Shown: positions 6,472 through 26,556 of the stretch, piece by piece
Layout: every line of letters starts with the position of its first letter
Position numbering within the stretch: position 1 is the stretch's first letter
NCBI GenBank assembly: GCA_019058275.1
Contig: JAHLVW010000036.1
Location: forward strand, 32,001 to 96,000
DNA: 64,000 nucleotides
Direction of reading: 5' to 3'
Source of the DNA: Candidatus Heimdallarchaeota archaeon
GTDB taxonomy: Archaea > Asgardarchaeota > Heimdallarchaeia > JABLTI01
Program-made: the position numbers and the translations under genes
The notes under the pieces: generated by a model
Databases searched by the model: none
Told to the model about the DNA's origin: nothing
What the model saw: only the letters and a program-made list of their open reading frames with translations

Positions 6472-6948
6472 TTAACCAATCTTAATCTTCATGAGCAATT
6501 GTTTGGAAGAAACTTGATCACCTATACCTACTGCTATTCTTTCTATAATTCCATCAATTGGTGATAAAATCTCATTTCTCATTTTCATCGATTCTAATAC
6601 TAGAAGACATTGTTGATCTTTGACTTTCTCTCCAGCTTGAACCTTTATTTCCACGATTTTTCCTGCTATCGCTGCTTTGATATCTGTTCCTTTTTTGTGC
6701 TTGATATTTTTTCGACTCATTATTTGAGGAGCTGGTTTGAAATCAAAATCAATTTCTTTTCCATTTAGAAAAACAGTATTTTCCTTAAATTCAATCCTTA
6801 GCACTCTACCATTTACTAATACTCTGTAAAATCTGCCATTATAGAATACTTCGGGCTTGAATTGATAATCATTAATCTTGATGCCATTTGGAGATTGTTC
6901 TAAATCAAATTCAGAACCATGAATGCGAATCTTGTACTTTTTCTCCAT
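6472..6948 (-). CDS. accB: Biotin carboxyl carrier protein with N-terminal BT-like beta domain
   Basis: LESMKMRNEI biotinylation motif, AAIAGKIV, GDQV. Confidence 0.9.
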   Translation of the reverse strand: MEKKYKIRIHGSEFDLEQSPNGIKINDYQFKPEVFYNGRFYRVLVNGRVLRIEFKENTVFLNGKEIDFDFKPAPQIMSRKNIKHKKGTDIKAAIAGKIVEIKVQAGEKVKDQQCLLVLESMKMRNEILSPIDGIIERIAVGIGDQVSSKQLLMKIKIG

Positions 6949-6951
6949 GAT

Positions 6952-8424
6952 TTAGTCCCTCCCTATAGCATCCATCTTACTTTTCATTCGCCAATTATCT
7001 GATGTAGATGGAAGACTGAGTTTGCTTTTCTTTAATCCAACAGCAAATAGTGCTGATGCAATTGTGCAAACGTTTTTCTCAAGTTTCTCGAGTATTTTTC
7101 TATCTTGAATGAAATTTATACTAATATCACCCATTTGGAAATTAGCATCTTCAAATAATTGCTCGAAGAAAGAGATATTTGTAGGAAACCCAATAATAAC
7201 TAATTCTTTCAAAGCATTTTGTGCTCGTCGAATAGCTTCTTCTCTAGATTCATCTGCTACTATTAATTTTCCAATTAGTGAATCATAGCAATCTGGTATT
7301 GTGAATCCTTCATAGATTGAAGTATCAAATCGTACTTGAGGACCACCTGGTGCAACAAATCTGGAAACCATACCGGGTGTTGGTTGAAAATTCATAAGAG
7401 GATCTTCTGCATTGATTCGTAATTCTATTGCATGTCCCCTAAATTTAATATCAGACTGTTTAAACGACAATTCAGCACCTTGAGCAATCTTAATTTGCTC
7501 TTTAACAATATCCTTTCCAGTTAACATTTCAGTTACAGGGTGCTCAACTTGAATTCTTGGATTTATTTCATTAAACATAACCTGATTATTTTTGTAGAGG
7601 AATTCTATTGTACCAGCATTTTTGTAACCAAGAGTTTTTGCTAGTTTACAAACTAATGCACCAATTTCCTTTCTCTCTGCATTTGTAATAGCTGTTGATG
7701 GTGATTCTTCTAACAATTTCTGATTTCTACGTTGTATTGAGCACTCTCTTTCACCTAAATGAACAACATTTCCAAAATTATCAGCTAAGATTTGAAACTC
7801 AATATGCCTTGGTTGCTCAATAAATTTCTCTAGGAAAACACTACTGCGTCCAAATGCTAATTTAGCTTGAGCACTAGCATTTCTAAGTGCGTTTTTCAAA
7901 TCCTTTTTATTAAGAGCAACCTGAATTCCCATACCTCCTCCACCAAAAACAGCCTTAACTAATACTGGATAACCGATTTTTTCAGCTTCTCTAATTCCTT
8001 CTTTATAATTTGAGATAATATCAGAACCAGGTGGAACGGATAATCCAACTTCTATTGCCTTTTCCCTTGACTTGACTTTATTTCCAAGAAGTTCAATAAC
8101 TTCAGGTGCGGGTCCAATAAATGTAATTCCTTCATCTAACAATCTTTGAGCAAAAATCTCACTTTCAGACAGAAATCCATATCCTGGGTGAACACTTTCT
8201 ACTTCTTCGCGCTTGCAAATAGCTGCAATCTGATCAATATCTAGATATCCTGGAGTTTCCCCATCTTCAACTAGCTCAAAAGATTCATCAGCGAGCTTCA
8301 CGTGAAGTGCATTTCGATCAACAGGGGAATAAATTGCGAAGGTTTTGATAACGAGCTCACGAGCTGCTCGGATGATTCTTACTGCAATTTCACCTCTGTT
8401 TGCTACTAACAGAGTATTGAACAT
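6952..8424 (-). CDS. accC: Biotin carboxylase subunit of acyl-CoA carboxylase
   Basis: ANRGEIA, HPGYGFLSE, GGGGMG, ERECSIQRRNQK, RIQVEHPVTE, RINAEDP, YDSLIGK. Confidence 0.96.
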   Translation of the reverse strand: MFNTLLVANRGEIAVRIIRAARELVIKTFAIYSPVDRNALHVKLADESFELVEDGETPGYLDIDQIAAICKREEVESVHPGYGFLSESEIFAQRLLDEGITFIGPAPEVIELLGNKVKSREKAIEVGLSVPPGSDIISNYKEGIREAEKIGYPVLVKAVFGGGGMGIQVALNKKDLKNALRNASAQAKLAFGRSSVFLEKFIEQPRHIEFQILADNFGNVVHLGERECSIQRRNQKLLEESPSTAITNAERKEIGALVCKLAKTLGYKNAGTIEFLYKNNQVMFNEINPRIQVEHPVTEMLTGKDIVKEQIKIAQGAELSFKQSDIKFRGHAIELRINAEDPLMNFQPTPGMVSRFVAPGGPQVRFDTSIYEGFTIPDCYDSLIGKLIVADESREEAIRRAQNALKELVIIGFPTNISFFEQLFEDANFQMGDISINFIQDRKILEKLEKNVCTIASALFAVGLKKSKLSLPSTSDNWRMKSKMDAIGRD

Positions 8425-8438
8425 GATAACAATGCAAC

Positions 8439-8525
8439 TTTTACAGTCTTATATATCACTAACGCCTTTTTACTGTAAAACCATTTCAAAGGAGGAATTT
8501 TGCTGTAGAGACTTTTACAGTAAAA
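8439..8525. promoter_or_regulatory. Repeated palindromic operator-like motif TTTTACWGTAAAA in the divergent accC / carboxyltransferase-PKS promoter
   Basis: Perfect copies at 8468-8480 (TTTTACTGTAAAA) and 8513-8525 (TTTTACAGTAAAA); degenerate copies at 8439-8451 and 8498-8510. Confidence 0.65.
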
Positions 8526-8605
8526 AAAAGATACATATATGATTATCATAGTTCCGTTTCTAAATGCGGCTTGGCAACCGTTTACTGAAACAGGAGATTT
8601 ATGAA

Positions 8606-10207
8606 ATGAATATGAACTCAGAGCTTACTGAAAATAGAGAACTTTTACTCAAAAAAGGCAAAACTCAGCAGAAGGCTGAGGAATTATTGGAGAAAAGAGA
8701 AGTAGCTCTACAAAGTGGTGGAGAAAAAGCAATTCAAAAGCAGTTAGAGAAGGGCAAATTAACTGCACGTCAAAGAATTGAACTTCTACTAGATCCAGGC
8801 TCATTTGTTGAAACCAATATGTTTGTTAGACATAAAAACAGCAATTTTGGATTGGACAAGAAGAAATTCTACACTGATGGTGTTATTACTGGTTTCGGTC
8901 AAGTAAATGGCAAATTAGTTTATGTTTACAGTCAAGATTTCACAATTCTAGGTGGAAGTCTTGGTGAGGCTCATGCTAAGAAAATAACTCAATTAATGGA
9001 TCAAGCAGTGCAAAATGGTGCCCCAATAATCGGGTTTAATGATTCTGGTGGTGCAAGAATTCAAGAAGGTGCAAGTTCACTAGCAGGTTATGGTGATATT
9101 TTCATTCGAAATGTTCGTGCTTCTGGTATTGTTCCTCAAATTTCTTGCATTGTAGGTCCTTCTGCTGGAGGAGCTGTTTATTCACCTGCGCTTACAGATT
9201 TTATTGTTATGACAGAAGATACTTCTTATATGTTTGTCACTGGTCCCGTAGTCGTAAAAGCTGTTACAGGAGAGGAGACATCATTTGAAGAGCTTGGTGG
9301 TGCTTCCACACACAGCACTAATTCTGGAATTTCTCACCTGGTTGGCTCTGATGAAATTGAATCTATTGAGCTCATAAAAGTGCTCCTCTCCTATCTTCCT
9401 TCTAATAATTTGGAAGATCCTCCATTAAAGGACACTTCAACCATTAATGGATACGAATTTAAAATGTTAAATGATATCATACCAGATGACCCCCAAGAAC
9501 CCTATGATATGAGAGAAGTAATTCTACGCATTGTAGATAAAGGAAACTTCCTAGAGCTTCAAAAGAAATGGGCTCAAAATATCATAATTGGTTTTGGAAG
9601 ACTAAATGGTCATCCAATTGGCATTGTAGCCAACCAACCAAGTATACTTGCAGGAGCTTTAGACATTAATGCTTCAATCAAAGCAGCAAGATTCATACGC
9701 TTCTGTGATTCATTTAATATTCCAATTATCACTTTCGTAGATGTTCCAGGATTCTTACCTGGATTAGATCAAGAACATAATGGCATAATCAAACATGGAG
9801 CAAAGCTCATATTTGCATATGCTGAAGCTACTGTACCAAAATTAACAGTTATTACAAGAAAAGCTTATGGAGGAGCCTATATTGTAATGGGATCCAAACA
9901 TCTTGCAAATGACATTAATTTTGCATGGCCAACAGCTGAAATTGCAGTTATGGGTTCAGAAGGTGCAGTTCAAATCATTTACAGAAGAGATTTAGCAGCT
10001 GCTGAAGACAAAGAAGAAATGTTATTGAATCTGAAAAATGACTTTGCTAAAGAATTCAATAATCCTTACTTAGCAGCAGAAAGAGGTTACATTGATGACG
10101 TTATTCTTCCTAGTGAAACACGTCAAAAATTAATTGCTTCTCTCTGGCCTTTACTCAGAAAAAGAGAAAGAAGATTGAACAAAAAGCACGGAAATATACC
10201 CCTTTAA
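8606..10207 (+). CDS. pccB: Acyl-CoA carboxylase carboxyltransferase subunit (PccB/AccD-like)
   Basis: GKLTARQRI, DSGGARIQEG, AGGAVYSPALTD, DVPGFLPG, RKAYGGAY, KKHGNIPL. The likely start is ATG 8606 after CAGGAG (track start 8564). Confidence 0.93.
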   Translation: MNMNSELTENRELLLKKGKTQQKAEELLEKREVALQSGGEKAIQKQLEKGKLTARQRIELLLDPGSFVETNMFVRHKNSNFGLDKKKFYTDGVITGFGQVNGKLVYVYSQDFTILGGSLGEAHAKKITQLMDQAVQNGAPIIGFNDSGGARIQEGASSLAGYGDIFIRNVRASGIVPQISCIVGPSAGGAVYSPALTDFIVMTEDTSYMFVTGPVVVKAVTGEETSFEELGGASTHSTNSGISHLVGSDEIESIELIKVLLSYLPSNNLEDPPLKDTSTINGYEFKMLNDIIPDDPQEPYDMREVILRIVDKGNFLELQKKWAQNIIIGFGRLNGHPIGIVANQPSILAGALDINASIKAARFIRFCDSFNIPIITFVDVPGFLPGLDQEHNGIIKHGAKLIFAYAEATVPKLTVITRKAYGGAYIVMGSKHLANDINFAWPTAEIAVMGSEGAVQIIYRRDLAAAEDKEEMLLNLKNDFAKEFNNPYLAAERGYIDDVILPSETRQKLIASLWPLLRKRERRLNKKHGNIPL

Positions 10208-10254: not shown

Positions 10255-13200
10255 ATGGTTTCTAGATATGATTTTGAAAATATCATAAGCAAACATAAAC
10301 CAATATTAGCTTACAATCCACAAGGAATTTCTGATGTCACTTTGATTAAGTCTGTAGTTGAATCTGGTGGTATTGGTCTTGTTGATTTAGAACGATTGCA
10401 AGATGATACGATTCAAGAATTATTACAAAATTGCTCCCAAAACATAAACGACTCATGGGGAATTAGAATTTCTTCTAAAGAACAATTGAAGCTTGTTCTT
10501 ACTCAACACGAAGATTCTTTTCCTTTGATTCTAGTTATTGGGGATTTCAAGCTTACTTCAACTGATTTACAAAAGATTAAAGCTAAATCTATTGTTCTTT
10601 TAGCTGAAGTGATTTCTTTAGAAGAAGCTTATGATAAGAAATGGGCTGAAGTATTTATTGTTAAAGGTAATGAGGCTGCTGGAAGAGTTGGTGATCAAAC
10701 ATCTTTCATACTCGCACAACAATTTGCAGATGCTGGATTGCCTTTTATAGTCCAAGGTGGTATTGGTCTTTATACTACCCCTGCTGTTTTTGCTGTTGGA
10801 GCTAAAGCTATTGTTTTGGACACTCAACTATTTCTTACACCTGAAAGTCCTCTTTCAAATCAAGTCAAAGAGTTCTTATCCAAATTAGATGCGACTGATA
10901 CAAAGGTATTGGGTGAATCCACTTCTAAGAAATATCGAGTTTATGCACGTTTAGGAACAAAAATAGTTCGTGAAATTGTCCAAAAGGAGAAGGAATTATT
11001 AGAGCTTACTAAAAAAGAGCGAACAAAGGTTTTCCAAGAAATTCTTCTTTCTAAAAGAGATATGTTTGATAAGGATGATATATCTAACTGTTTGATTCCA
11101 ATAGGTCAGGATATACCCTTTGCAGGAATTTTGACTGCAAAATTCAAAGATGTTAATGGTATAATTAATGGTCTGCTTAAGCAAGCAAAGAAGCAAATCA
11201 AAGAAGCCATAATGAATTATCCATTTAGAGAAAATACTGAGATTGCAAAAACCCTTGGAGTAAAATATCCCCTTATCCAAGGACCAATGGCTAATGTTTC
11301 TGAAAGTCCGAAATTTGCTAAAGTGACATCAAATGCAGGAGCATTACCATTTTTAGCTTTAGGTTCACTCTTTCCTAATCAAACCAGAACTTTAATTAGC
11401 GAAACCAAAAAGGCATTAGGTGAAAAACCATTTGGATGTGGATTAATTGGTCTTGAAGCTAATAAAACTGCTCGAGATGAACATCTGAAAATAATTAAAG
11501 AGCTAAAGCCACCTTTTGTCGTTGTTGCTGCCGGAACCATTGATCAAGCTAAAGAAATAATGAATTATGATATTGAAACATTCCTACATACACCATCACC
11601 ATTGATCTTCGCTGAAGCTATAGAATCAAACGTTTATTCCTTGATTTTAGAAGGAATGGAATGTGGTGGTCATATAGGTGTTTTAACAAGTTTTGTTTTA
11701 TGGGAATTATCTTTACACCAATTAGCAAAGTTAGAAGATAGCATAAAGAATAGCAATAAAAAAGTAACAGTTGCATTTGCAGGAGGAATTGGTGATAGAT
11801 TTTCTGCTGCAATAGCTGGTGTTGTTAGTTCTTCATTACCTGAATTAATGAATGGTGTCATGTGGGTTGGTTCTGCATATATTTTAGTAAAAGAAATTGT
11901 TGAAACAGGTGCAATTCAACCACTATACCAACAATTAGCATTAAATGCTAAAGAGACTATGGTCATGGGTGAAACAGTAAATACTCGAGCAAGATCTATC
12001 CCAACACCATTTGCAAGAGAAATCATCAAAAGAGAATTAGATAGAATTCATGAAGGTATCAGCTTAAAGGAACGCAAGCATCAGTATGAACGAGACAATT
12101 TAGGAGCAACTCGAGTAGCTGCATTAGGTGAAATCTGGAATCCAGATGGTGAAGACGACAAACCAAATAGGTTCATGTTTGTAGATGAAAAAGTGCAACA
12201 CAAGAAAGGGAATTATCTAATTGGTCAAATTGTCACAAGTCTTCGTTGTATACGATCGATTGATAATTTGCATGATGAGCTTATTATGAATTCCCAAAAA
12301 GTAGTTACTAAGAAGGGAATGGAATTAGCTGAAAAGCTGAGACAAATAAGTGAACAAGTGCTAAAAATCCCAGAAAAGAAAATAGATCCAGTATCAACAG
12401 ATATATCTTATCAAGAAGTTAATACTGATATATTTGAAAGTGAAGGAATAGCTGTTATTGGTTTAGGTTGCGTTTTTCCTGATGCACCAAATATCAAAAC
12501 ATATTGGAAAAATATACTCAAAAAAGTTTATTCCATAAAAGAAATCTCAAAGAAGAGATGGCATGGTGATATCAATCTATTCTATAGTGAAGATAGAAAT
12601 ATGCCAAACAAAACCTATGCAAAAATTGCTGCTGAAATTGAAGATCTTAAGTTCAATTCAATAGAATTCAAAATTCCACCAAAAGTTACAATAACAATGG
12701 GTAAAACCCAGAAACTAGCTTTAATGGCTGCAAAAGAAGCGTTAAGTGATTCTGGATTACTTGAAAAAGGTGTGGATAATAATAGAACTGCAGTTATCAT
12801 AGGTAATTCGATGGGTGATGAGATAAGAGGAGATCGTACTCGAAAGATCTATGTACCTGAATTCTTGGCTTCAATAGAAAAGACTTCCTCATTCAAGGAT
12901 ATTGACAAGAAATCTTGGGAAAATATCAGAAAAGAAGTATTCGATGATTATGAATCTAAACTATCACCAATTAATGAAGATGCTATGCCAGGGGAATTAT
13001 CGAACATCATCGCAGGGAGAATCGCTAATGTTTTCAATCTTCGCGGTAAAAGTATGACTACTGATGCAGCATGTGCATCAAGCTTAGCAGCATTGAATGT
13101 AGCAGTAAAAGGACTTCTTGATAAAGAATATAATGTAGCCCTTTGTGGAGGTGTAGATTGCTCTTTAGACCCAACGACATTTGTAAAGTTTGCAAAAATA

Positions 13201-16200
13201 GGTGCTATATCTGCAGAAGGATCTTTTCCATTTGATGCTAGAGCAAACGGATTTGTTATGGGCGAAGGAGCAGGTTTCTGTGTTCTAAAACGTTTATCAG
13301 AAGCTGTTAAAGATGGCAATAAAATTTACGCTGTATTTAGAGGATTTGGAGCTGCTTCTGACGGGAAAGGAAAAGGAATTACTGCCCCTAATCCTATCGG
13401 ACAAAAACTTGCAATAGAAAGAGCACTAGACCAAGCTGGTCTTACATTCTCTGATATACAATATGTTGAAGCACACGGTACAAGTACAACTGTAGGTGAT
13501 GTCATTGAAATGCAAGTACTGAACGAAATGGCTCAAGACATAAAACCAGCATCAATTGCTATAGGTTCTATTAAAAGTCAAATTGGTCACTTGAAGAGTG
13601 CCGGAGGTATTGCTTCAATAATAAAAACAGCTCTTGCACTGCACCATAAAATTCTACCACCTTCTATCAATTTTAAGACACCTAATCCAAAAATAGATTG
13701 GGCGACTTCACCATTTTACGTTAATATTAATAAACAAGATTGGAAGCTACCCTCAACTGGTTTTAGAGCTGCAGGGATTTCTTCTTTTGGTTTTGGTGGT
13801 ACAAACTACCATGCAATTATAGAGGAATACATTCCTGGTAAAACTAGAGGTCATTTACCAACCCTAATTAGTTCTAAGGAATTACAGAACATTCTTGCAG
13901 GAGCTCATATTGCTCAAGGATTAAGCACCTCAGCTGAATTTGAGAAGGTTCTAGATACCTCAAAATGGCAAGATTACATTGGTAAGAACATTTCACTAGA
14001 GATTGAACCAATCTTCTTTGGAGGTAATTCCGAACAAGAATTAATTGATTCCATAAATGACTATAAAGGTGCAATCCCTCAGAGCACATTTAAAACAGAT
14101 GGTACAGGATTTCGTGTAAGGAACTTAACTGTACAATCACTAGATAATCTATCTAAGAAAATTAAAGCAAGTATAACTTGTTCATCACTAGAAGATTTAC
14201 CAAAAACCTTAGATACTTTAGTTGAAGGTATAAAAGAGAAAAGAAAACGAAAATTGCTTATGAATAAGGGGATGTTCTTCAGTGATGATCATTCTCTTGG
14301 TAAAATAGCTTTTCTTTTCCCTGGACAAGGAAGTCAATATCTTCGCATGGGTAAAGAGCTATTTGAAAAATACACAATAGTTCAAGAGACTTTCAATGAA
14401 GCAGATGAAATTACAAAAGAACTTATCGGTTTTCCAATATCAGATGTAATTTTCACAAATGGAAAATCTGATGAAGAAGCAGTAGCGCAACTAAAAGAAA
14501 CAGAAATCACTCAACCAGCAATCTTTACTTTGAATATTGCTATTTTCAGATTACTGAAGTCCTTTGGTATAGAACCTGATTTTGTTGCAGGTCATAGCAT
14601 GGGTGAATATGCTGCTTTAGTTGCTTCAGGGATCCTTAGTCTTAGAGATGGATTCCTTGCTATTGTTCCTCGTGGACAAACTATGTCTAAATTCAAATCT
14701 AAGGATAAAGGAACGATGGCTTCAATAGGAGCTGGATATGAAGTTGTTGATGAAGTTCTCAAAACAATTGATGAATATGTTATTGCTGCTAATAAGAACT
14801 CACCAAAACAAACGGTAATATCTGGTTCTACTGTAGGTGTTAAAGCAGCTGTAAAAGCTTTTACAGATAAAGGTATTCCTGCTATTCCATTGCCTGTTTC
14901 AGCTGCATTCCATTCTAAAATAGTTGAAATAGCAGTTGTTGAATTCAGAAAAGCACTAAAGAAATTAAAATACAAAAAACCACTAATACTAATCTCCAGT
15001 AATGTTACTGGAGAATTGTATCCAACAACAAGAAAAGAAATAATCGATTTATTATGTGCTCAAGTATGCTCTCCTGTTGAATGGATAAAACAAATAACTG
15101 ACATGTATGAGAAACATGGAGCTAGAACATTCATAGAAATAGGTCCAAAATACGTTCTAACGAGTTTCAATCGAGGAATACTTGAGGAAAAAACTGATGT
15201 TTTATCACTTGCATCAAATCATCCTAAGAGAGGAGCTATTCAACATTTCTCTGAAGTGATTGGTGCATTAGGAACTTATTGCTATCCTATAAAGTATCCA
15301 GCATTAGAAAGTACAATATATACACCTGAATTCAGAAATCCACTCGAGAGATTTTATACGAAGAGAGTAATTAGTAGAGAATCAGTAAGACAAACTATCG
15401 TAAAGAAATCTCCTTTTGACATTCTAATAAATTCAAAACTCAAATCATTAGTCAAAGAGGACTCATTTAGTGACTATCTTAAATTACAAGCACCAGCAAT
15501 AAGTGCCTTTTTAGAAGTTGGCTATGAAACCTATAAAACAACGATTGCTGAAGCAATGAAAGAAAAGGAGAGGTTCGATAAACTCCAAATTAATACTGAA
15601 GCAATTGGAATAACTGGCGTATCCATAGGACTACCTGGCAGAGATAGGAAGGTATTTGATGAATCAAACTTTGATGCGATTCTTGCAGGAGAAAATTTCA
15701 TTGATCTTATACCAATGGAATATCGTAAAAAAATGGTTGATAAGAATATTGTACGTCTTGTCAAAGATGCTATTAAAGGTGCACAATTCCAGACAATCTC
15801 GGATGTTAGCGAAGTAATTAAATTAGCTGCACAGAAAGGCCAATTCAATCTTTCTGAAGAATATGGTGTAGATGTTGGTTTTACTGAGATTTTAGATATT
15901 ACATTTCAATTAGCTTTTGCAGCTGGTATTGAAGCTATGAGAGATGCAGGTATCCCACTGATGCCATTAAAAGTTAAAACCTCTGTAGGTAAGGAAATTA
16001 CAAAGGGATGGGCATTACCCGAGTCATTAAGAAATGAAACTGGAATAATTTTTGCATCAGCATTTCCTGCTTATAGTAATTTAATCTCAGTTGTATCTGA
16101 ATATCTAGCAGATAAATATGCAAATAAAAATCGAGAGGAAATAAATCTCCTTTTTGATGAGTTAATTGACCAAATTTCTAATAAAACCTCAAAAGAGAGG

Positions 16201-19200
16201 ATTCAACAGTGGTTCCTCAACAATAAGTCACAAATTGCTACTGATAAAGAGTCACAATTCCAATTCAGTAGGAAGTTCTTGTTTGAAATACTTTCAATGG
16301 GTCATTCACAATTTGCACAATTCATTAGAGCTAGAGGACCTAACACTCAAGTAAATGCTGCATGTTCATCTACAACCCAAGCTGTTGCTATAGCAGAAGA
16401 TTGGATAAGAACCAGTAGATGTAAAAGAGTAATAGTGATTGCTGCAGATGATGTAACCAATGAGGTCATGCTTGAATGGATTGGGTCTGGCTTTTTAGCA
16501 GTAGGTGCAGCAACAACACTTGAGAAAGTAGAAGAAGCAGCTTTACCTTTTGATAAAAGAAGGCATGGCATGATAATCGGAATGGGCGCTGTAGGAATAG
16601 TAATAGAAGCAGAATCAGCAATTCAAAAAAGAGGAGTAAAACCCATTGTTGACTTGCTGGGAACTCACATAGTGAATTCCGCTTTCCATGGAACAAGATT
16701 GGACAGAGATCATATCTCTTCACAAGTGGATGAATTTATTACAAATATTGAACGAAGACATGGAATCACTCGAGAGGAAATTGCCAGAGAACTGGTATTT
16801 GTTAGCCATGAAACATATACTCCAGCAAGAGGAGGAAGTGCTTCTGCTGAAGTAGATGCTTTAAGAAAAACATTTGGTAGCATGATTGACAAGATCGTTA
16901 TTGCCAATACAAAAGGATTTACAGGACATGCTATGGGTGCTGGTATTGAAGATGTCGTTGCTGTTAAGATTCTTGAAAAAGGAATTGTACCTCCTGTTGC
17001 TAATTGGAAAGAGCTTGATCCAGAACTTGGACACTTGAATCTGTCAAAAGGTGGAAAATATAACGTTAAATACGCTCTTAGATTTGCAGCTGGTTTTGGA
17101 TCTCAACTTACTCTAGTTTTGTACAGATTAAACACTTCCCTAAATCGTCTTGAAGGTGTTGGCTATGAACAATGGTTGAACTCTCTAGGTGGTACTAAAT
17201 CAACTATGGAAGTTGTAAAGAAAACCCTGCGTTTGAAGGAAGATCCAACTTTAATTAAACCTCAGCAAATTATTCCAAAAATTACTGCCCAAACTGGTAG
17301 TATGCAAGATGAGGGGATAGTTAAAGCTGTTGTTGATTTAATTTCCGAAAAAACTGGTTATCCAATAGATATGATTGAGCCAAATATGCATTTAGAGGAA
17401 GACTTGGGGATTGACACAGTAAAGCAAGCTGAATTATTTGGTGTCATAAGAACTAAATACAGTTTACCTCGAGAGGAAGGCGTAAGAATCCAAGAATACT
17501 TCTCAGTAAATAAAATCGCTGAATATATTACTTCTAGAATTTCAGGAGAAATTCAACCTTCGAGTGTAGACTCAGGTGTTCAAATACAACAGAGTACTTC
17601 CTCATCTCATAAAGAGATAGCAAAGGAAATTACTCTTCTAATTTCTGAGAAAACTGGTTATCCAACAGATATGATAGAAGCTGATATGGAATTAGAAGAA
17701 GATCTTGGTATAGACACAGTTAAGCAAGCAGAAATGTTTGGAATCATCAGAACAAAATGGAATCTACCAAGAGAGGAAGGTATTCGTATACAAGAGTATT
17801 CAACTGTCAATAAAATTGCTGAATATATTCTGAAAAGAGTTAGTGATGCTTCACAAACTTCAACTGAAGTAGTAGCTGAAACAACAACCTCAACAGAAGA
17901 TATCTATGTACCTGCTAAACGATTGGTCTTACAATTAATTGAATCACCTATGCCCAAAGCTGAAAAAATCAAATTAAAGGATAAAAAATTCATTATCGCT
18001 GGTGAAACAGGACCATTCACTACTAAACTAATTTCACTACTAGGAGACAAGAAAGCTAATCTAATAAAACATCTTGATTTGAAAACTCTTAACTCGAGAG
18101 AGAAAATACTCAAAGAAATACCTGAAGATGTTATAGATGGCTTGATTTACATTGAACCAAAAACTAGTCAGAAAAATAAGCACAACTTAACAGCTAGAAT
18201 CTTCTTCACTCTTTGTCGTGATATCAACTATTCTGATTCACCTTTAGTATTAACCATAAGCGAAAACATAACCTCTTTTGGTTGGAATGGTAAGCATAAA
18301 CCAATTTCTGGTTCACTTACTGGATTAACTAAAGCCATTGCTCGTGAATTTACAAATAGTAGAGTTAAATGTGTTGCGTGTAATGATCCTAAATATGCTA
18401 TCGATGAAATCTGTGCAGGAGATGGATCTATCGAAGTTTCCTATACAGAGGATGGTAAAAGAAAAGTTTTCGTTACAGTGGAAACTCCTGTTGAAGTTAC
18501 TGATCAACCGTTTACAATCTCAAAGGATGAATTGGTAATTATTACTGGTGGAGCTCTAGGAATTACTCATCAAATTTCTAAAGAATTAGCGAAAAGATAT
18601 CAACCCAAATTAGCTTTGGTTGGCATTGAAACTCTCCCAGATAATATTGATGAAATAGCCAATTATAGTGAAGAAAGGTTAGCTCAATTAAAAGATCAAT
18701 TGATTAGTGATTTAAAACAAAGAGAAGAAAGAGTTACTCCGGTTCTAATAGAAAAGGAATGGTCAAAAATCAGCAAAGCAATTGATGTTAAAAAAGGGAT
18801 CGAAGAGCTAACTGCACTAGGTAGTGTTGTAAAATATTACTCAACTAATGTCGTAAATACCGAACAAATGAAATCTACCATTGAACAAATTGGTGCTGAT
18901 TTTGGTCAAGAAATTATTGGTATAATTCATGGTGCAGGTTTAGAAATTTCTAGATTAATTAAAGATAAAAAACCAGAGGAATTTGATCTTGTTTACAATG
19001 TAAAAGCCATTGGCTTAGATAACCTAATTCAAAACATAAACATGAAGAAGGTAAAATTCGTCAAATGCTTTTCATCAGTTGCTGGTAGATATGGTAATGG
19101 TGGCCAAGTCGACTATTCAGCTGCTAATGATTATCTCTCCAAGAATTGTTGGCAATTAAGGTCAAAAGGAATTCGTGCAACTTCTATTTGTTGGTCTGCT

Positions 19201-25419: not shown

Positions 25420-26556
25420 CTAATTATCTGCCCAGACTGAGTATAATTGAGCAAGTTGATCAGTAATAGTATCATTGAATAACAAAACTTGTCCTGCGAA
25501 TCTAGAGGGAGGACCAGTTCCTACTTTCATCATTATAAGGTTTAATCCATGATTTAAGGTAACAGAATTCTTTGTATACCATATTTCCTTTCTATTGCCT
25601 TGAAGAATGTATTCACCATTGAACCATACTTTGAAATTTTTCTCACCATTAGCTCCAACATTAACTGTGAGTGAATCACTACTTGGATTATAAATGTAAG
25701 ACCACATGTAGACTAATCCCCTTTCACCCCATTCTAAATCATCATGAGTATCCCAATTCCCAGCTTTTGTAAATGCTATTAAACCAGGTCTAGCACCACT
25801 GTCATTATAAGGCATTATTTTATGATTACTTTGTAGGCCAATGTTACCTTGTGTGAATGTATTAGTGTCAAGAAGATTTGGAAGATAATCTTGTTCACTA
25901 CCATAACCACATAGATCTATGTAATCAATAGAGATATCAGGTGTCCTAGTATTATCTTCGAATTCACCTAGTAAAAACCAAAGGTTGGGTGAAAATCCTA
26001 CAGTTGTTGGGAAATTACTCTTACCATAAGCATCATCTGATGATGTTCTTCTTACCAAATAGTCATGATAATAATATGGTATGCCATCAGAATAATTGCC
26101 AGAATTTGCTGATGGAAGTGTTGCAACAAAACCAGAGGAGATAAAATCATCATCTTCAAATCTAACTTGAACTCTAAAAACAACAAATGGTTGAATTTCT
26201 TCAGAACTACCAAGTGCAAATAAATTTATATCATCAATTTCACTTATACCGACTTTTCTGTCAAGTGTATACCAAAGTAATGTTTCATTATTTTGCAGAA
26301 TCGCAACACTTTCGATATCTGCGTCATTCATACCTTTATTCATCAAAGGTATAGAAACAGTGTCAAACAAACCATTTCTATCAAAATCTTCAACTTCAAT
26401 TTCTCCAGCTTGATAAATATCTGACTTTAATCTAAGATAACTCATTGTAATGCCAACAACAATTCCTGCAGCAATAACAGTTATACCAATCAAAAATACA
26501 GTAGCTATAACATTAGATACTGCTTTTTTATTTGGTAAAATGGATCTAAAATTCAT
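25420..26556 (-). CDS. Archaeal type IV pilin-like protein (class III signal peptide) with large C-terminal beta-rich domain
   Basis: KKA|VSNVIATVFLIGITVIAAG prepilin motif; C-terminal KVWFNG...LNHGLNLIMMKV resembles a PA14/sugar-binding fold. Confidence 0.75.
   Translation of the reverse strand: MNFRSILPNKKAVSNVIATVFLIGITVIAAGIVVGITMSYLRLKSDIYQAGEIEVEDFDRNGLFDTVSIPLMNKGMNDADIESVAILQNNETLLWYTLDRKVGISEIDDINLFALGSSEEIQPFVVFRVQVRFEDDDFISSGFVATLPSANSGNYSDGIPYYYHDYLVRRTSSDDAYGKSNFPTTVGFSPNLWFLLGEFEDNTRTPDISIDYIDLCGYGSEQDYLPNLLDTNTFTQGNIGLQSNHKIMPYNDSGARPGLIAFTKAGNWDTHDDLEWGERGLVYMWSYIYNPSSDSLTVNVGANGEKNFKVWFNGEYILQGNRKEIWYTKNSVTLNHGLNLIMMKVGTGPPSRFAGQVLLFNDTITDQLAQLYSVWADN

What the first reader, a model, noticed from the sequence alone, without database searches (positions are those of the whole stretch)
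17317..17841. Both ACP domains have Thr (LGIDT) instead of the phosphopantetheinylated Ser
Seen: D-T-V-K at 17413-17424 and 17713-17724 (Thr codons ACA at 17416 and 17716). The two repeats differ elsewhere, so Thr was kept in both. Established: carrier proteins are modified on the Ser of GxDS. Inference: either the cis-fused Sfp-type PPTase attaches the cofactor to Thr (non-canonical holo-ACP chemistry), or these ACPs are inactive and another carrier is used. No other ACP is visible in the window, and intact catalytic domains argue against decay.
Basis: partly seen in the sequence, partly recalled or inferred. Interest (0 to 1): 0.82.

Follow-up and report, generated by a model that had tools for sequence, protein, structure and literature searches.

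The report
Threonine-type carrier domains, archaeal megasynthase
Both acyl-carrier domains of a giant fatty-acid/polyketide-type synthase in this archaeon have threonine where every studied carrier protein has the serine that holds the phosphopantetheine arm. The swap is the conserved norm of a very large uncharacterised enzyme family, which points to an undescribed threonine-linked form of a textbook cofactor attachment.

Summary
Thr2388 (ACA, 17416-17418) and Thr2488 (ACA, 17716-17718) sit where carrier proteins have the phosphopantetheine serine: they align on that serine in solved ACPs and open helix II in a confident model.

It is neither decay nor a sequencing error.
- In an index-free search, 423 of 650 related ACP domains have Thr (DLG[I/V]DTVKQ), 212 have Ser, and the 9 others have lost the rest of the motif.
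- All four Thr codons are used.
- A diverged strain from an independent sediment study has synonymous changes on both sides of each Thr codon.

The family matches the uncharacterised 'Type R' secondary lipid synthase of Shulse & Allen 2011, who did not mention the Thr. In 65 of 66 informative loci an Sfp-type PPTase is fused or encoded next door. In this genome, and in two other archaeal genomes, the synthase holds the only carrier domains and the only PPTase.

Best reading (about 0.7): Thr is the real attachment site, loaded by the fused PPTase. No chemistry was tested. E. coli ACP S36T cannot be modified, so this would be new.

Earlier follow-ups of this scan reached the same reading on other genomes.

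The parts
10255..21000 (+). 3581-aa single-chain synthase (P0001): ER-ER-KS-AT-KS2-ACP-ACP-KR-DH-PPTase
   Evidence: ORF. Pfam domains. Best NCBIfam match is TIGR02813 PfaA, 868 bits, below its cut-off of 1010.
10255..12354 (+). Two FabK/NMO-type enoyl-reductase barrels (about residues 1-700)
   Evidence: PF03060 with two stretches; TIGR03151 FabK match at residues 328-595.
12442..13851 (+). KS1 (residues 730-1199), with DAACASS, EAHGTS and GHLKSAGG
   Evidence: PF00109, PF02801 and PF16197; motifs read from the translation.
14311..15201 (+). Acyltransferase (residues 1353-1649), with GHSMGE and AFHS
   Evidence: PF00698 and TIGR00128 FabD.
15601..17124 (+). Second KS-like domain (about residues 1783-2290), which keeps Cys (NAACSSTT). 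Shulse & Allen call this position CLF in Type R clusters.
   Evidence: Second stretch of PF00109/PF02801 and PF08545 at 2033-2069; motif read.
17302..17565 (+). ACP1 (residues 2350-2437), motif EDLGIDTVKQAELF, Thr2388 codon ACA at 17416-17418
   Evidence: AlphaFold2 model has pLDDT 88.3 with Thr as the first residue of helix II. The top Foldseek hits are almost all acyl carrier proteins.
17602..17865 (+). ACP2 (residues 2450-2537), motif EDLGIDTVKQAEMF, Thr2488 codon ACA at 17716-17718
18535..19206 (+). Ketoreductase (residues 2761-2984)
   Evidence: PF08659.
19408..20217 (+). PKS-type dehydratase (residues 3052-3321)
   Evidence: PF21089 and PF14765.
20272..20997 (+). C-terminal Sfp-type (W/KEA) PPTase domain (residues 3340-3581), with GKP, LSITHS, GIDLE and WTAKEAASK. 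It is the only PPTase in the genome.
   Evidence: PF01648. Alignments to Sfp (1QR0, 4MRT) and human AASDHPPT (2CG5) show all catalytic motifs. Whole-genome search.
8564..10207 (+). Acetyl-CoA carboxylase carboxyltransferase, just upstream of the synthase (malonyl-CoA supply)
   Evidence: PF01039, E 3e-195. The same gene class lies beside Thr-type synthases in Elusimicrobiota (L006) and Planobispora (L050).
6472..8424 (-). Biotin carboxyl carrier protein (6472-6948) and biotin carboxylase (6952-8424)
   Evidence: PF00364, and PF02786/PF00289/PF02785.

Best explanation
The two domains are working acyl carrier domains of an iterative type I fatty-acid/polyketide-type synthase. Their 4'-phosphopantetheine arm is attached to the side-chain oxygen of Thr2388 and Thr2488 instead of a serine. 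The arm is transferred from CoA by the Sfp-type PPTase domain fused to the C-terminus of the same protein. The holo-ACPs then shuttle malonyl and growing acyl thioesters between AT, KS1/KS2, KR, DH and the N-terminal ER, with malonyl-CoA supplied by the adjacent acetyl-CoA carboxylase genes. Thr is the ancestral, selected state of this whole enzyme family, which matches the 'Type R' secondary lipid synthases. Shown here: the position of the Thr, its conservation, the purifying selection on it, the linkage to a PPTase, and the absence of any other carrier or PPTase. Inferred: the Thr-O-phosphopantetheine linkage itself, and the product (probably a saturated or lightly modified fatty acyl chain).
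For: 1) Thr is at the canonical site. It aligns on the Ppant Ser of solved ACPs and is the first residue of helix II in a pLDDT-88 ACP fold.
2) Conservation. An index-free HMMER search of 1.84 billion representatives gave 4870 hits. Among the best 150 proteins there are 650 ACP domains: 423 Thr, 212 Ser, and only 9 with another residue. Those 9 are edge domains that have lost the rest of the DLGxD motif. A real decayed ACP therefore looks different.
3) Selection. All four Thr codons occur at the site (ACG 129, ACC 98, ACA 14, ACT 12), and 31 of 80 loci use more than one among their repeats. In a roughly 95%-identical strain from another study, the Asp and Val codons on both sides of each Thr changed synonymously while ACA did not (22 synonymous and 10 nonsynonymous codons).
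4) Ser and Thr interchange in the same context. Thermoplasmatota homologues have GIDSVKQVELF in the first ACP and GIDTVKQVELF in the next five. P0143 has all Ser inside the Thr clade. This suggests that it is the hydroxyl that is kept.
5) A dedicated PPTase. In 65 of 66 informative loci, across about ten phyla, a homologous PPTase is fused (11) or adjacent (54, of which 50 are on the same strand).
6) No alternative partners. In this genome (92.8% complete) the only PP-binding matches are these two ACPs and the only PPTase is the fused one. The same holds for a Thermoplasmata and a Heimdallarchaeota genome.
7) The PPTase catalytic motifs are intact, as are the KS, AT and KR motifs.
Against: No chemical evidence exists: I found no report of a Thr-linked phosphopantetheine. 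The one experimental precedent points the other way. E. coli ACP S36T cannot be modified and is non-functional (PMC3340395), although that concerns AcpS, not an Sfp-type enzyme. No member of the Thr clade has a known product or a demonstrated activity. The genome is a MAG (118 contigs, 6.8% contamination), so a missing second carrier or PPTase cannot be fully excluded. No RNA data were found.
Confidence: 0.7

Rival explanations
1. The Thr-ACPs are permanently apo. They act as structural or regulatory modules, and the synthase works on CoA-bound or otherwise carried intermediates, as in the proposed ACP-independent fatty-acid synthesis of archaea.
For: E. coli ACP S36T is not modified (PMC3340395). 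Archaea generally lack ACP and AcpS (my own knowledge).
Against: This does not explain the near-universal dedicated PPTase, nor a PPTase with intact catalytic motifs in genomes that have no other carrier. It does not explain tandem arrays of up to 8 Thr-ACPs, nor why only Ser or Thr is ever found at the site.
Confidence: 0.1
2. The Thr carries a different group. This could be a variant prosthetic group transferred by the PPTase homologue (for example a dephospho-CoA-derived arm, as on citrate lyase ACP), a regulatory phosphate, or a directly O-linked acyl chain.
For: Thr, rather than Ser, is selected in 423 of 635 domains although Ser is one mutation away. This hints at a chemical or recognition difference.
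Against: The PPTase has every Sfp-type CoA/Mg and catalytic motif. KS, AT, KR and DH are standard thioester-handling domains. Ser substitutes for Thr in the same context. The window holds no citG/citX-type genes among the ORFs scanned.
Confidence: 0.1
3. The arm is attached to another residue of the domain, and Thr is only a structural replacement.
For: None specific.
Against: The invariant residues of Thr-type ACPs are G, Y, E, D, L, G, D, T, V, K, Q, E and F. There is no invariant Ser or Cys. The other near-invariant Thr residues (in KTGYP and PTL) are also present in Ser-type PfaA ACPs.
Confidence: 0.04
4. It is a sequencing or assembly error, or recent decay of a dying gene.
For: The sequence comes from a metagenome-assembled genome.
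Against: The same codons occur in contigs from several sediment runs, including a diverged strain from a different study. Purifying selection is visible. The ORF is 3581 aa and intact. The residue is conserved in hundreds of species.
Confidence: 0.01

Closest known systems
'Type R' secondary lipid synthase gene cluster (Shulse & Allen 2011, PMC3098273): Ca. Koribacter versatilis, Ca. Solibacter usitatus, Elusimicrobium minutum, Roseiflexus
   Same: One pfaA-like gene with KS-MAT-(CLF/KS2)-ACPn-KR, followed by a PPTase and sometimes joined by an acetyl-CoA carboxylase gene. The PPTase has the P1b' motif hShxH, here LSITH. Elusimicrobium and Acidobacteriota loci were recovered with the Thr-ACP profile.
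   Different: Here everything is in one chain, with two N-terminal FabK-type ER barrels and the PPTase fused at the C-terminus, only two ACPs, and an archaeal host. The paper never mentions the Thr (no occurrence of 'threonine' or 'serine'), and the product is unknown.
Tandem ACP domains of PfaA in PUFA synthases (Shewanella, Moritella, Schizochytrium ORFA; NCBIfam TIGR02813) with PPTase PfaE
   Same: Tandem ACPs with a very similar core (DLGID-x-[IV]K-x-x-E) and the same KTGYP...M preamble. The best NCBIfam match of the ACP region is PfaA positions 1203-1397. Both have a dedicated Sfp-type PPTase.
   Different: PfaA has DLGIDSIKRVEIL with Ser (P0096), whereas this protein has DLGIDTVKQAE with Thr. 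The whole-protein score is below the TIGR02813 cut-off (868 against 1010). There is an extra KS between AT and the ACPs, no FabA-type DH pair was detected, and there are no PfaB/C/D partners.
E. coli AcpP S36T mutant
   Same: The same single substitution, at the same position.
   Different: In E. coli it is an engineered apo-locked, non-functional protein that cannot be modified (PMC3340395). Here Thr is the natural conserved state and is paired with an Sfp-type PPTase, not an AcpS-type one.
Megasynthases with a fused PPTase (fungal FAS alpha chain, enediyne PKSE; a PfaC-PPTase fusion in Pseudoalteromonas sp. DS-12 is noted in PMC3098273)
   Same: Self-priming architecture, with carrier and PPTase in one polypeptide.
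   Different: Those enzymes prime a Ser (my own knowledge). Here the only candidate acceptor is Thr.

Membership tests
Acyl carrier protein / PP-binding domain (PF00550) | Profile match above the curated cut-off | tested here: met
   38.3 bits for the didomain; 22.1 and 20.9 bits singly, against a cut-off of 20.8.
Acyl carrier protein / PP-binding domain (PF00550) | Helical-bundle ACP fold with the attachment residue at the N-terminus of helix II | tested here: met
   AlphaFold2 model with pLDDT 88.3; long helices at 2-18, 39-53 and 69-81, with the Thr at position 39. Foldseek TM-scores of 0.7-0.8 to many ACPs.
Acyl carrier protein / PP-binding domain (PF00550) | Conserved Ser in the (D/E)xGxDS motif as Ppant acceptor | tested here: not met
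   Thr2388 and Thr2488 replace it.
Acyl carrier protein / PP-binding domain (PF00550) | Carries 4'-phosphopantetheine | not testable with these tools
   Needs mass spectrometry.
PfaA, polyketide-type PUFA synthase (TIGR02813) | Whole-protein score above the curated cut-off | tested here: not met
   868.1 bits against 1010.1.
PfaA, polyketide-type PUFA synthase (TIGR02813) | KS-MAT-ACPn-KR order with ACPs reading LGIDSIKRVE, and partner genes pfaB, pfaC (FabA-type DH pair) and pfaD | tested here: not met
   An extra KS precedes the ACPs, the ACPs have Thr, Pfam detects no FabA-type DH, and the neighbours are ACC genes, not pfaB/C/D.
'Type R' secondary lipid synthase cluster (Shulse & Allen 2011) | pfaA homologue with KS-MAT-CLF-ACP(3-6)-KR | tested here: inconclusive
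   The domain order matches. However, there are only 2 ACPs, the 'CLF' keeps its Cys, and ER and PPTase are fused on. Bacterial relatives P0002, L006 and L050 fit the description fully.
'Type R' secondary lipid synthase cluster (Shulse & Allen 2011) | PPTase directly downstream, with P1a x(G/D)xP and P1b' hShxH motifs | tested here: met
   LGKP and LSITH are in the fused domain. The PPTase is linked in 65 of 66 informative loci.
'Type R' secondary lipid synthase cluster (Shulse & Allen 2011) | Groups with the named Type R organisms in a KS phylogeny | not tested
   No KS tree was built. Only the ACP profile recovered Elusimicrobium minutum and Acidobacteriota loci.
Sfp-type (group II) PPTase, W/KEA subfamily | Pseudo-dimeric domain of about 230 aa with GKP, (F/h)SxSH, GxDxE and W(S/T)xKE(A/S)xxK | tested here: met
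   PF01648 at 63.9 bits. Alignments to Sfp and AASDHPPT cover Sfp residues 24-184 with all motifs present.

The most novel reading that the evidence does not exclude
O-(4'-phosphopantetheinyl)-threonine is a natural, widespread post-translational modification. A whole family of type I lipid synthases in bacteria and archaea (hundreds of species) uses Thr-linked carrier domains that only their own Sfp-type PPTases can load. This would give a carrier/PPTase pair that is insulated from housekeeping AcpS and perhaps more resistant to loss of the arm. In Asgard and Thermoplasmatota archaea this self-priming enzyme would be the only ACP-dependent system in the cell, and the source of bacterial-type fatty acyl chains.
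Probability: 0.6. Interest if true: 0.88.

Novelty: new variant of a known kind. Interest (0 to 1): 0.76.

Why it matters
The serine-linked phosphopantetheine arm is one of the most invariant features in biochemistry, and Ser-to-Thr is the standard way to make a dead ACP. A large natural family with Thr at that site would have several consequences.
- It would add a new form of the modification.
- It would call for a revision of the motif rules used to annotate carrier domains (my own knowledge: the PROSITE-type pattern allows Ser only).
- It would provide an orthogonal carrier/PPTase pair for engineering.

In archaea the same protein bears on whether some Asgard lineages make fatty acids by an ACP-dependent route, which is relevant to the lipid-divide question. 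The claim can be tested directly with one co-expression and one mass spectrum.

Tried and rejected
- Literature: searches for the motif DTVKQ, for Thr-linked phosphopantetheine, for tandem ACP plus threonine, and for Asgard PKS found nothing relevant. One search failed on a term that was too long. The E. minutum genome paper is not held.
- Aureispira idea: I thought the Saprospiraceae hits might correspond to the functionally expressed Aureispira marina ARA synthase. I rejected this, because its ACP is 48% identical to the Shewanella ACP, like Schizochytrium at 49%, so it is probably Ser-type (PMC5067506).
- Search bias: the first homologue search is word-seeded and therefore biased toward the motif. 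I did not rely on its proportions and repeated the tally with the index-free search.
- RNA evidence: no RNA holder was listed for this DNA.
- Complex prediction (ACP with PPTase and CoA) was considered and not run. A pass would rest on likeness to the solved Sfp-PCP and AASDHPPT-ACP complexes and could not tell Thr loading from Ser loading.
- A residue-level comparison of Thr-linked and Ser-linked PPTases was not attempted, because only one Ser-linked fused PPTase (P0143) was at hand and phylogeny would confound it.
- G003 (Ca. Avelusimicrobium, 1.5 Mb) shows only the synthase-linked PPTase beside a canonical Ser AcpP. This hints at dual Ser/Thr specificity, but the completeness of that genome is unknown, so I give it no weight.

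Full report
**Observation.** The window encodes one 3581-aa ORF (10255-21000, + strand). Pfam and NCBIfam give the domain order ER-ER (FabK/NMO type), KS, AT, a second KS-like domain, two PP-binding domains, KR, PKS-type DH and a C-terminal ACPS-superfamily PPTase. The two carrier domains read EDLGIDTVKQAELF and EDLGIDTVKQAEMF. In phmmer alignments to solved carrier proteins the Thr lies on the phosphopantetheine serine: PigH DLGVDS/DLGIDS, mitochondrial ACP DLGLDS, Aquifex ACP DLGADS. An AlphaFold2 model of ACP1 (pLDDT 88.3) has long helices at 2-18, 39-53 and 69-81, and the Thr is the first residue of helix II. Its top Foldseek matches are almost all acyl carrier proteins.

**Not an error and not decay.** Contigs from several sediment metagenome runs were laid on 17200-17960.
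- Two runs cover the whole stretch with no difference at either Thr codon. X3 may be this assembly's source, and X5 is near-identical and may be too.
- A roughly 95%-identical strain from a different study (X6) has synonymous changes in the Asp and Val codons on both sides of each Thr (D2387, V2389, D2487, V2489), but keeps ACA.
- Overall that strain differs at 22 synonymous and 10 nonsynonymous codons, and the nonsynonymous ones fall mostly in the inter-domain linker and at domain edges.

The motifs of KS1, AT, KS2 and KR can be read in the translation.

**How general is the Thr?** A word-seeded search gave 2545 homologues, and nearly every tandem ACP in the best 120 reads DLG[IV]DTVKQ[AV]E. 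That search is biased toward the motif, so I repeated it with an index-free HMMER scan of 1.84 billion representatives using ACP1 alone. It gave 4870 hits at E of 1e-3 or better.

An HMM-based tally over the best 150 proteins gives:

| Count | Result |
|---|---|
| ACP domains in total | 650 |
| Thr at the site | 423 |
| Ser at the site | 212 |
| Other residue | 9 (edge domains that have lost the rest of the DLGxD motif) |
| Partial domains (gap at the site) | 6 |
| Proteins with Thr only | 98 |
| Proteins with Ser only | 37 |
| Proteins with both | 2 |

The Ser set is the canonical PfaA type, LGIDSIKRVE (for example Shewanella, P0096).

I built an ACP tree with the site and its neighbouring columns removed. 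All Thr domains fall in one clade (support 86) of 132 tips, and 37 Ser domains lie outside it. Nine Ser tips sit inside the clade, and at least five changes are needed over the whole tree. These inside-clade Ser tips include the first ACP of two Thermoplasmatota enzymes (GIDSVKQVELF, followed by five GIDTVKQVELF) and all five ACPs of P0143.

At the DNA level all four Thr codons are used at the site (ACG 129, ACC 98, ACA 14, ACT 12). In 31 of 80 loci, repeats within one gene use different Thr codons. So Thr is maintained by selection, only Ser ever replaces it, and real decay of an ACP looks different.

**Distribution and gene context.** The hits are in Thermoplasmatota, Heimdallarchaeota, Elusimicrobiota (including E. 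minutum), Acidobacteriota, Chloroflexota, Actinomycetota (including Planobispora takensis), Myxococcota, Spirochaetota, Thermodesulfobacteriota and others.

In 65 of the 79 fetched loci a PPTase homologous to the fused one (E 1e-20 to 1e-54) is present. It is part of the synthase in 11 loci and a separate gene in 54, and 50 of those 54 are on the same strand. Thirteen of the 14 loci without one end within 2.1 kb downstream of the ACP match, so they are uninformative. That leaves 65 of 66 informative loci with a linked PPTase.

Example clusters are:
- Elusimicrobiota (L006): FabI-type ER, KS-AT-(KS2 region)-ACPn-KR-DH, PPTase, ACC carboxyltransferase.
- Planobispora (L050): acyl-CoA-dehydrogenase-like gene, synthase, fused ACC, PPTase.

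The window shows the same logic, with ER and PPTase fused on and the ACC genes adjacent. This matches the 'Type R' secondary lipid synthase cluster of Shulse & Allen 2011 (KS-MAT-CLF-ACP(3-6)-KR plus a downstream PPTase; Koribacter, Solibacter, Elusimicrobium, Roseiflexus). Its product is uncharacterised (PMC3098273). That paper does not mention threonine or serine.

**The PPTase and its possible substrates.** The C-terminal domain aligns with Sfp and human AASDHPPT and keeps GKP, LSITHS, GIDLE and WTAKEAASK. In the whole genome (4.12 Mb, 92.8% complete) the only PP-binding matches are these two ACPs and the only PPTase match is this domain. The same is true of a Thermoplasmata genome and a Heimdallarchaeota genome that carry homologues. 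An intact PPTase kept in genomes whose only carrier domains have Thr is hard to explain unless Thr-ACPs are its substrates. Elusimicrobiota keep a normal AcpP with DLGADSLD beside the Thr-type synthase, so the Thr is specific to this enzyme family.

**Mechanism proposed.** The fused Sfp-type PPTase transfers phosphopantetheine from CoA to the hydroxyl of Thr2388 and Thr2488. The holo-ACPs then serve an iterative KS/AT/KR/DH/ER cycle fed by the neighbouring acetyl-CoA carboxylase. The linkage itself is inferred.

The strongest counter-argument is experimental. E. coli ACP S36T cannot be modified and does not support growth (PMC3340395). That result concerns the AcpS-type enzyme, but it is why the Thr is surprising.

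Why Thr rather than Ser is selected is unknown. Possible reasons are insulation from housekeeping AcpS, or a more stable phosphodiester. Both are speculation.

**Comparison and novelty.** The enzyme works like a PfaA-type or Type R lipid synthase with tandem ACPs and a dedicated PPTase.
- It fails the PfaA family cut-off (868 against 1010 bits) and lacks PfaB/C/D partners.
- It fits the Type R description in domain order and PPTase motifs. It differs in being single-chain, archaeal and two-ACP. No KS tree was made.
- I found no description of Thr-type carrier domains or of Thr-linked phosphopantetheine in the searchable literature.
- Earlier follow-ups in this scan reached the same reading on other genomes, bacterial and archaeal. 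That repeats the inference and is not independent proof.

I rate it a new variant of a known kind: a known carrier/PPTase system with an undescribed acceptor residue. Confidence is about 0.7 that Thr is really loaded.

Noticed in passing
window 17637-17831: In run X3 a 9.4-kb contig (depth 10.7) lies on this stretch twice, with a 'goes back 185' joint. A co-occurring strain probably has one more ACP repeat (three ACPs, as in the Heimdallarchaeota homologue P0054).
   Followed up: no
window 17392-17433: Short contigs in runs X3 and X6 match only the DLGIDTVKQAE core, with unlike flanks. Other Thr-type synthases from other organisms are present in the same sediments.
   Followed up: no
window 15601-17124: The second KS-like domain keeps a Cys (NAACSSTT) and a GH motif, although Shulse & Allen label this position CLF in Type R clusters. 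It may be a second active ketosynthase.
   Followed up: no
window 6472-10207; L006 4446-15364; L050 3333-19185: The cluster logic is conserved across domains of life: an enoyl reductase of varying type (FabK-type fused here, FabI-type gene in Elusimicrobiota, acyl-CoA-dehydrogenase-like in Planobispora), then the synthase, PPTase and acetyl-CoA carboxylase. It looks like a self-contained type I fatty-acid synthase.
   Followed up: partly
G003 (genome of L025, Ca. Avelusimicrobium faecicola): The only PPTase found in this 1.5-Mb genome is the one next to the Thr-type synthase, yet the genome has a canonical Ser AcpP. This hints that the PPTase may load both Ser and Thr. The genome's completeness is unknown.
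   Followed up: partly
window 25420-26556 (-): An ORF has an archaeal type IV pilin N-terminal match (PF07790, just below the cut-off). This is consistent with an archaeal host for the synthase.
   Followed up: no
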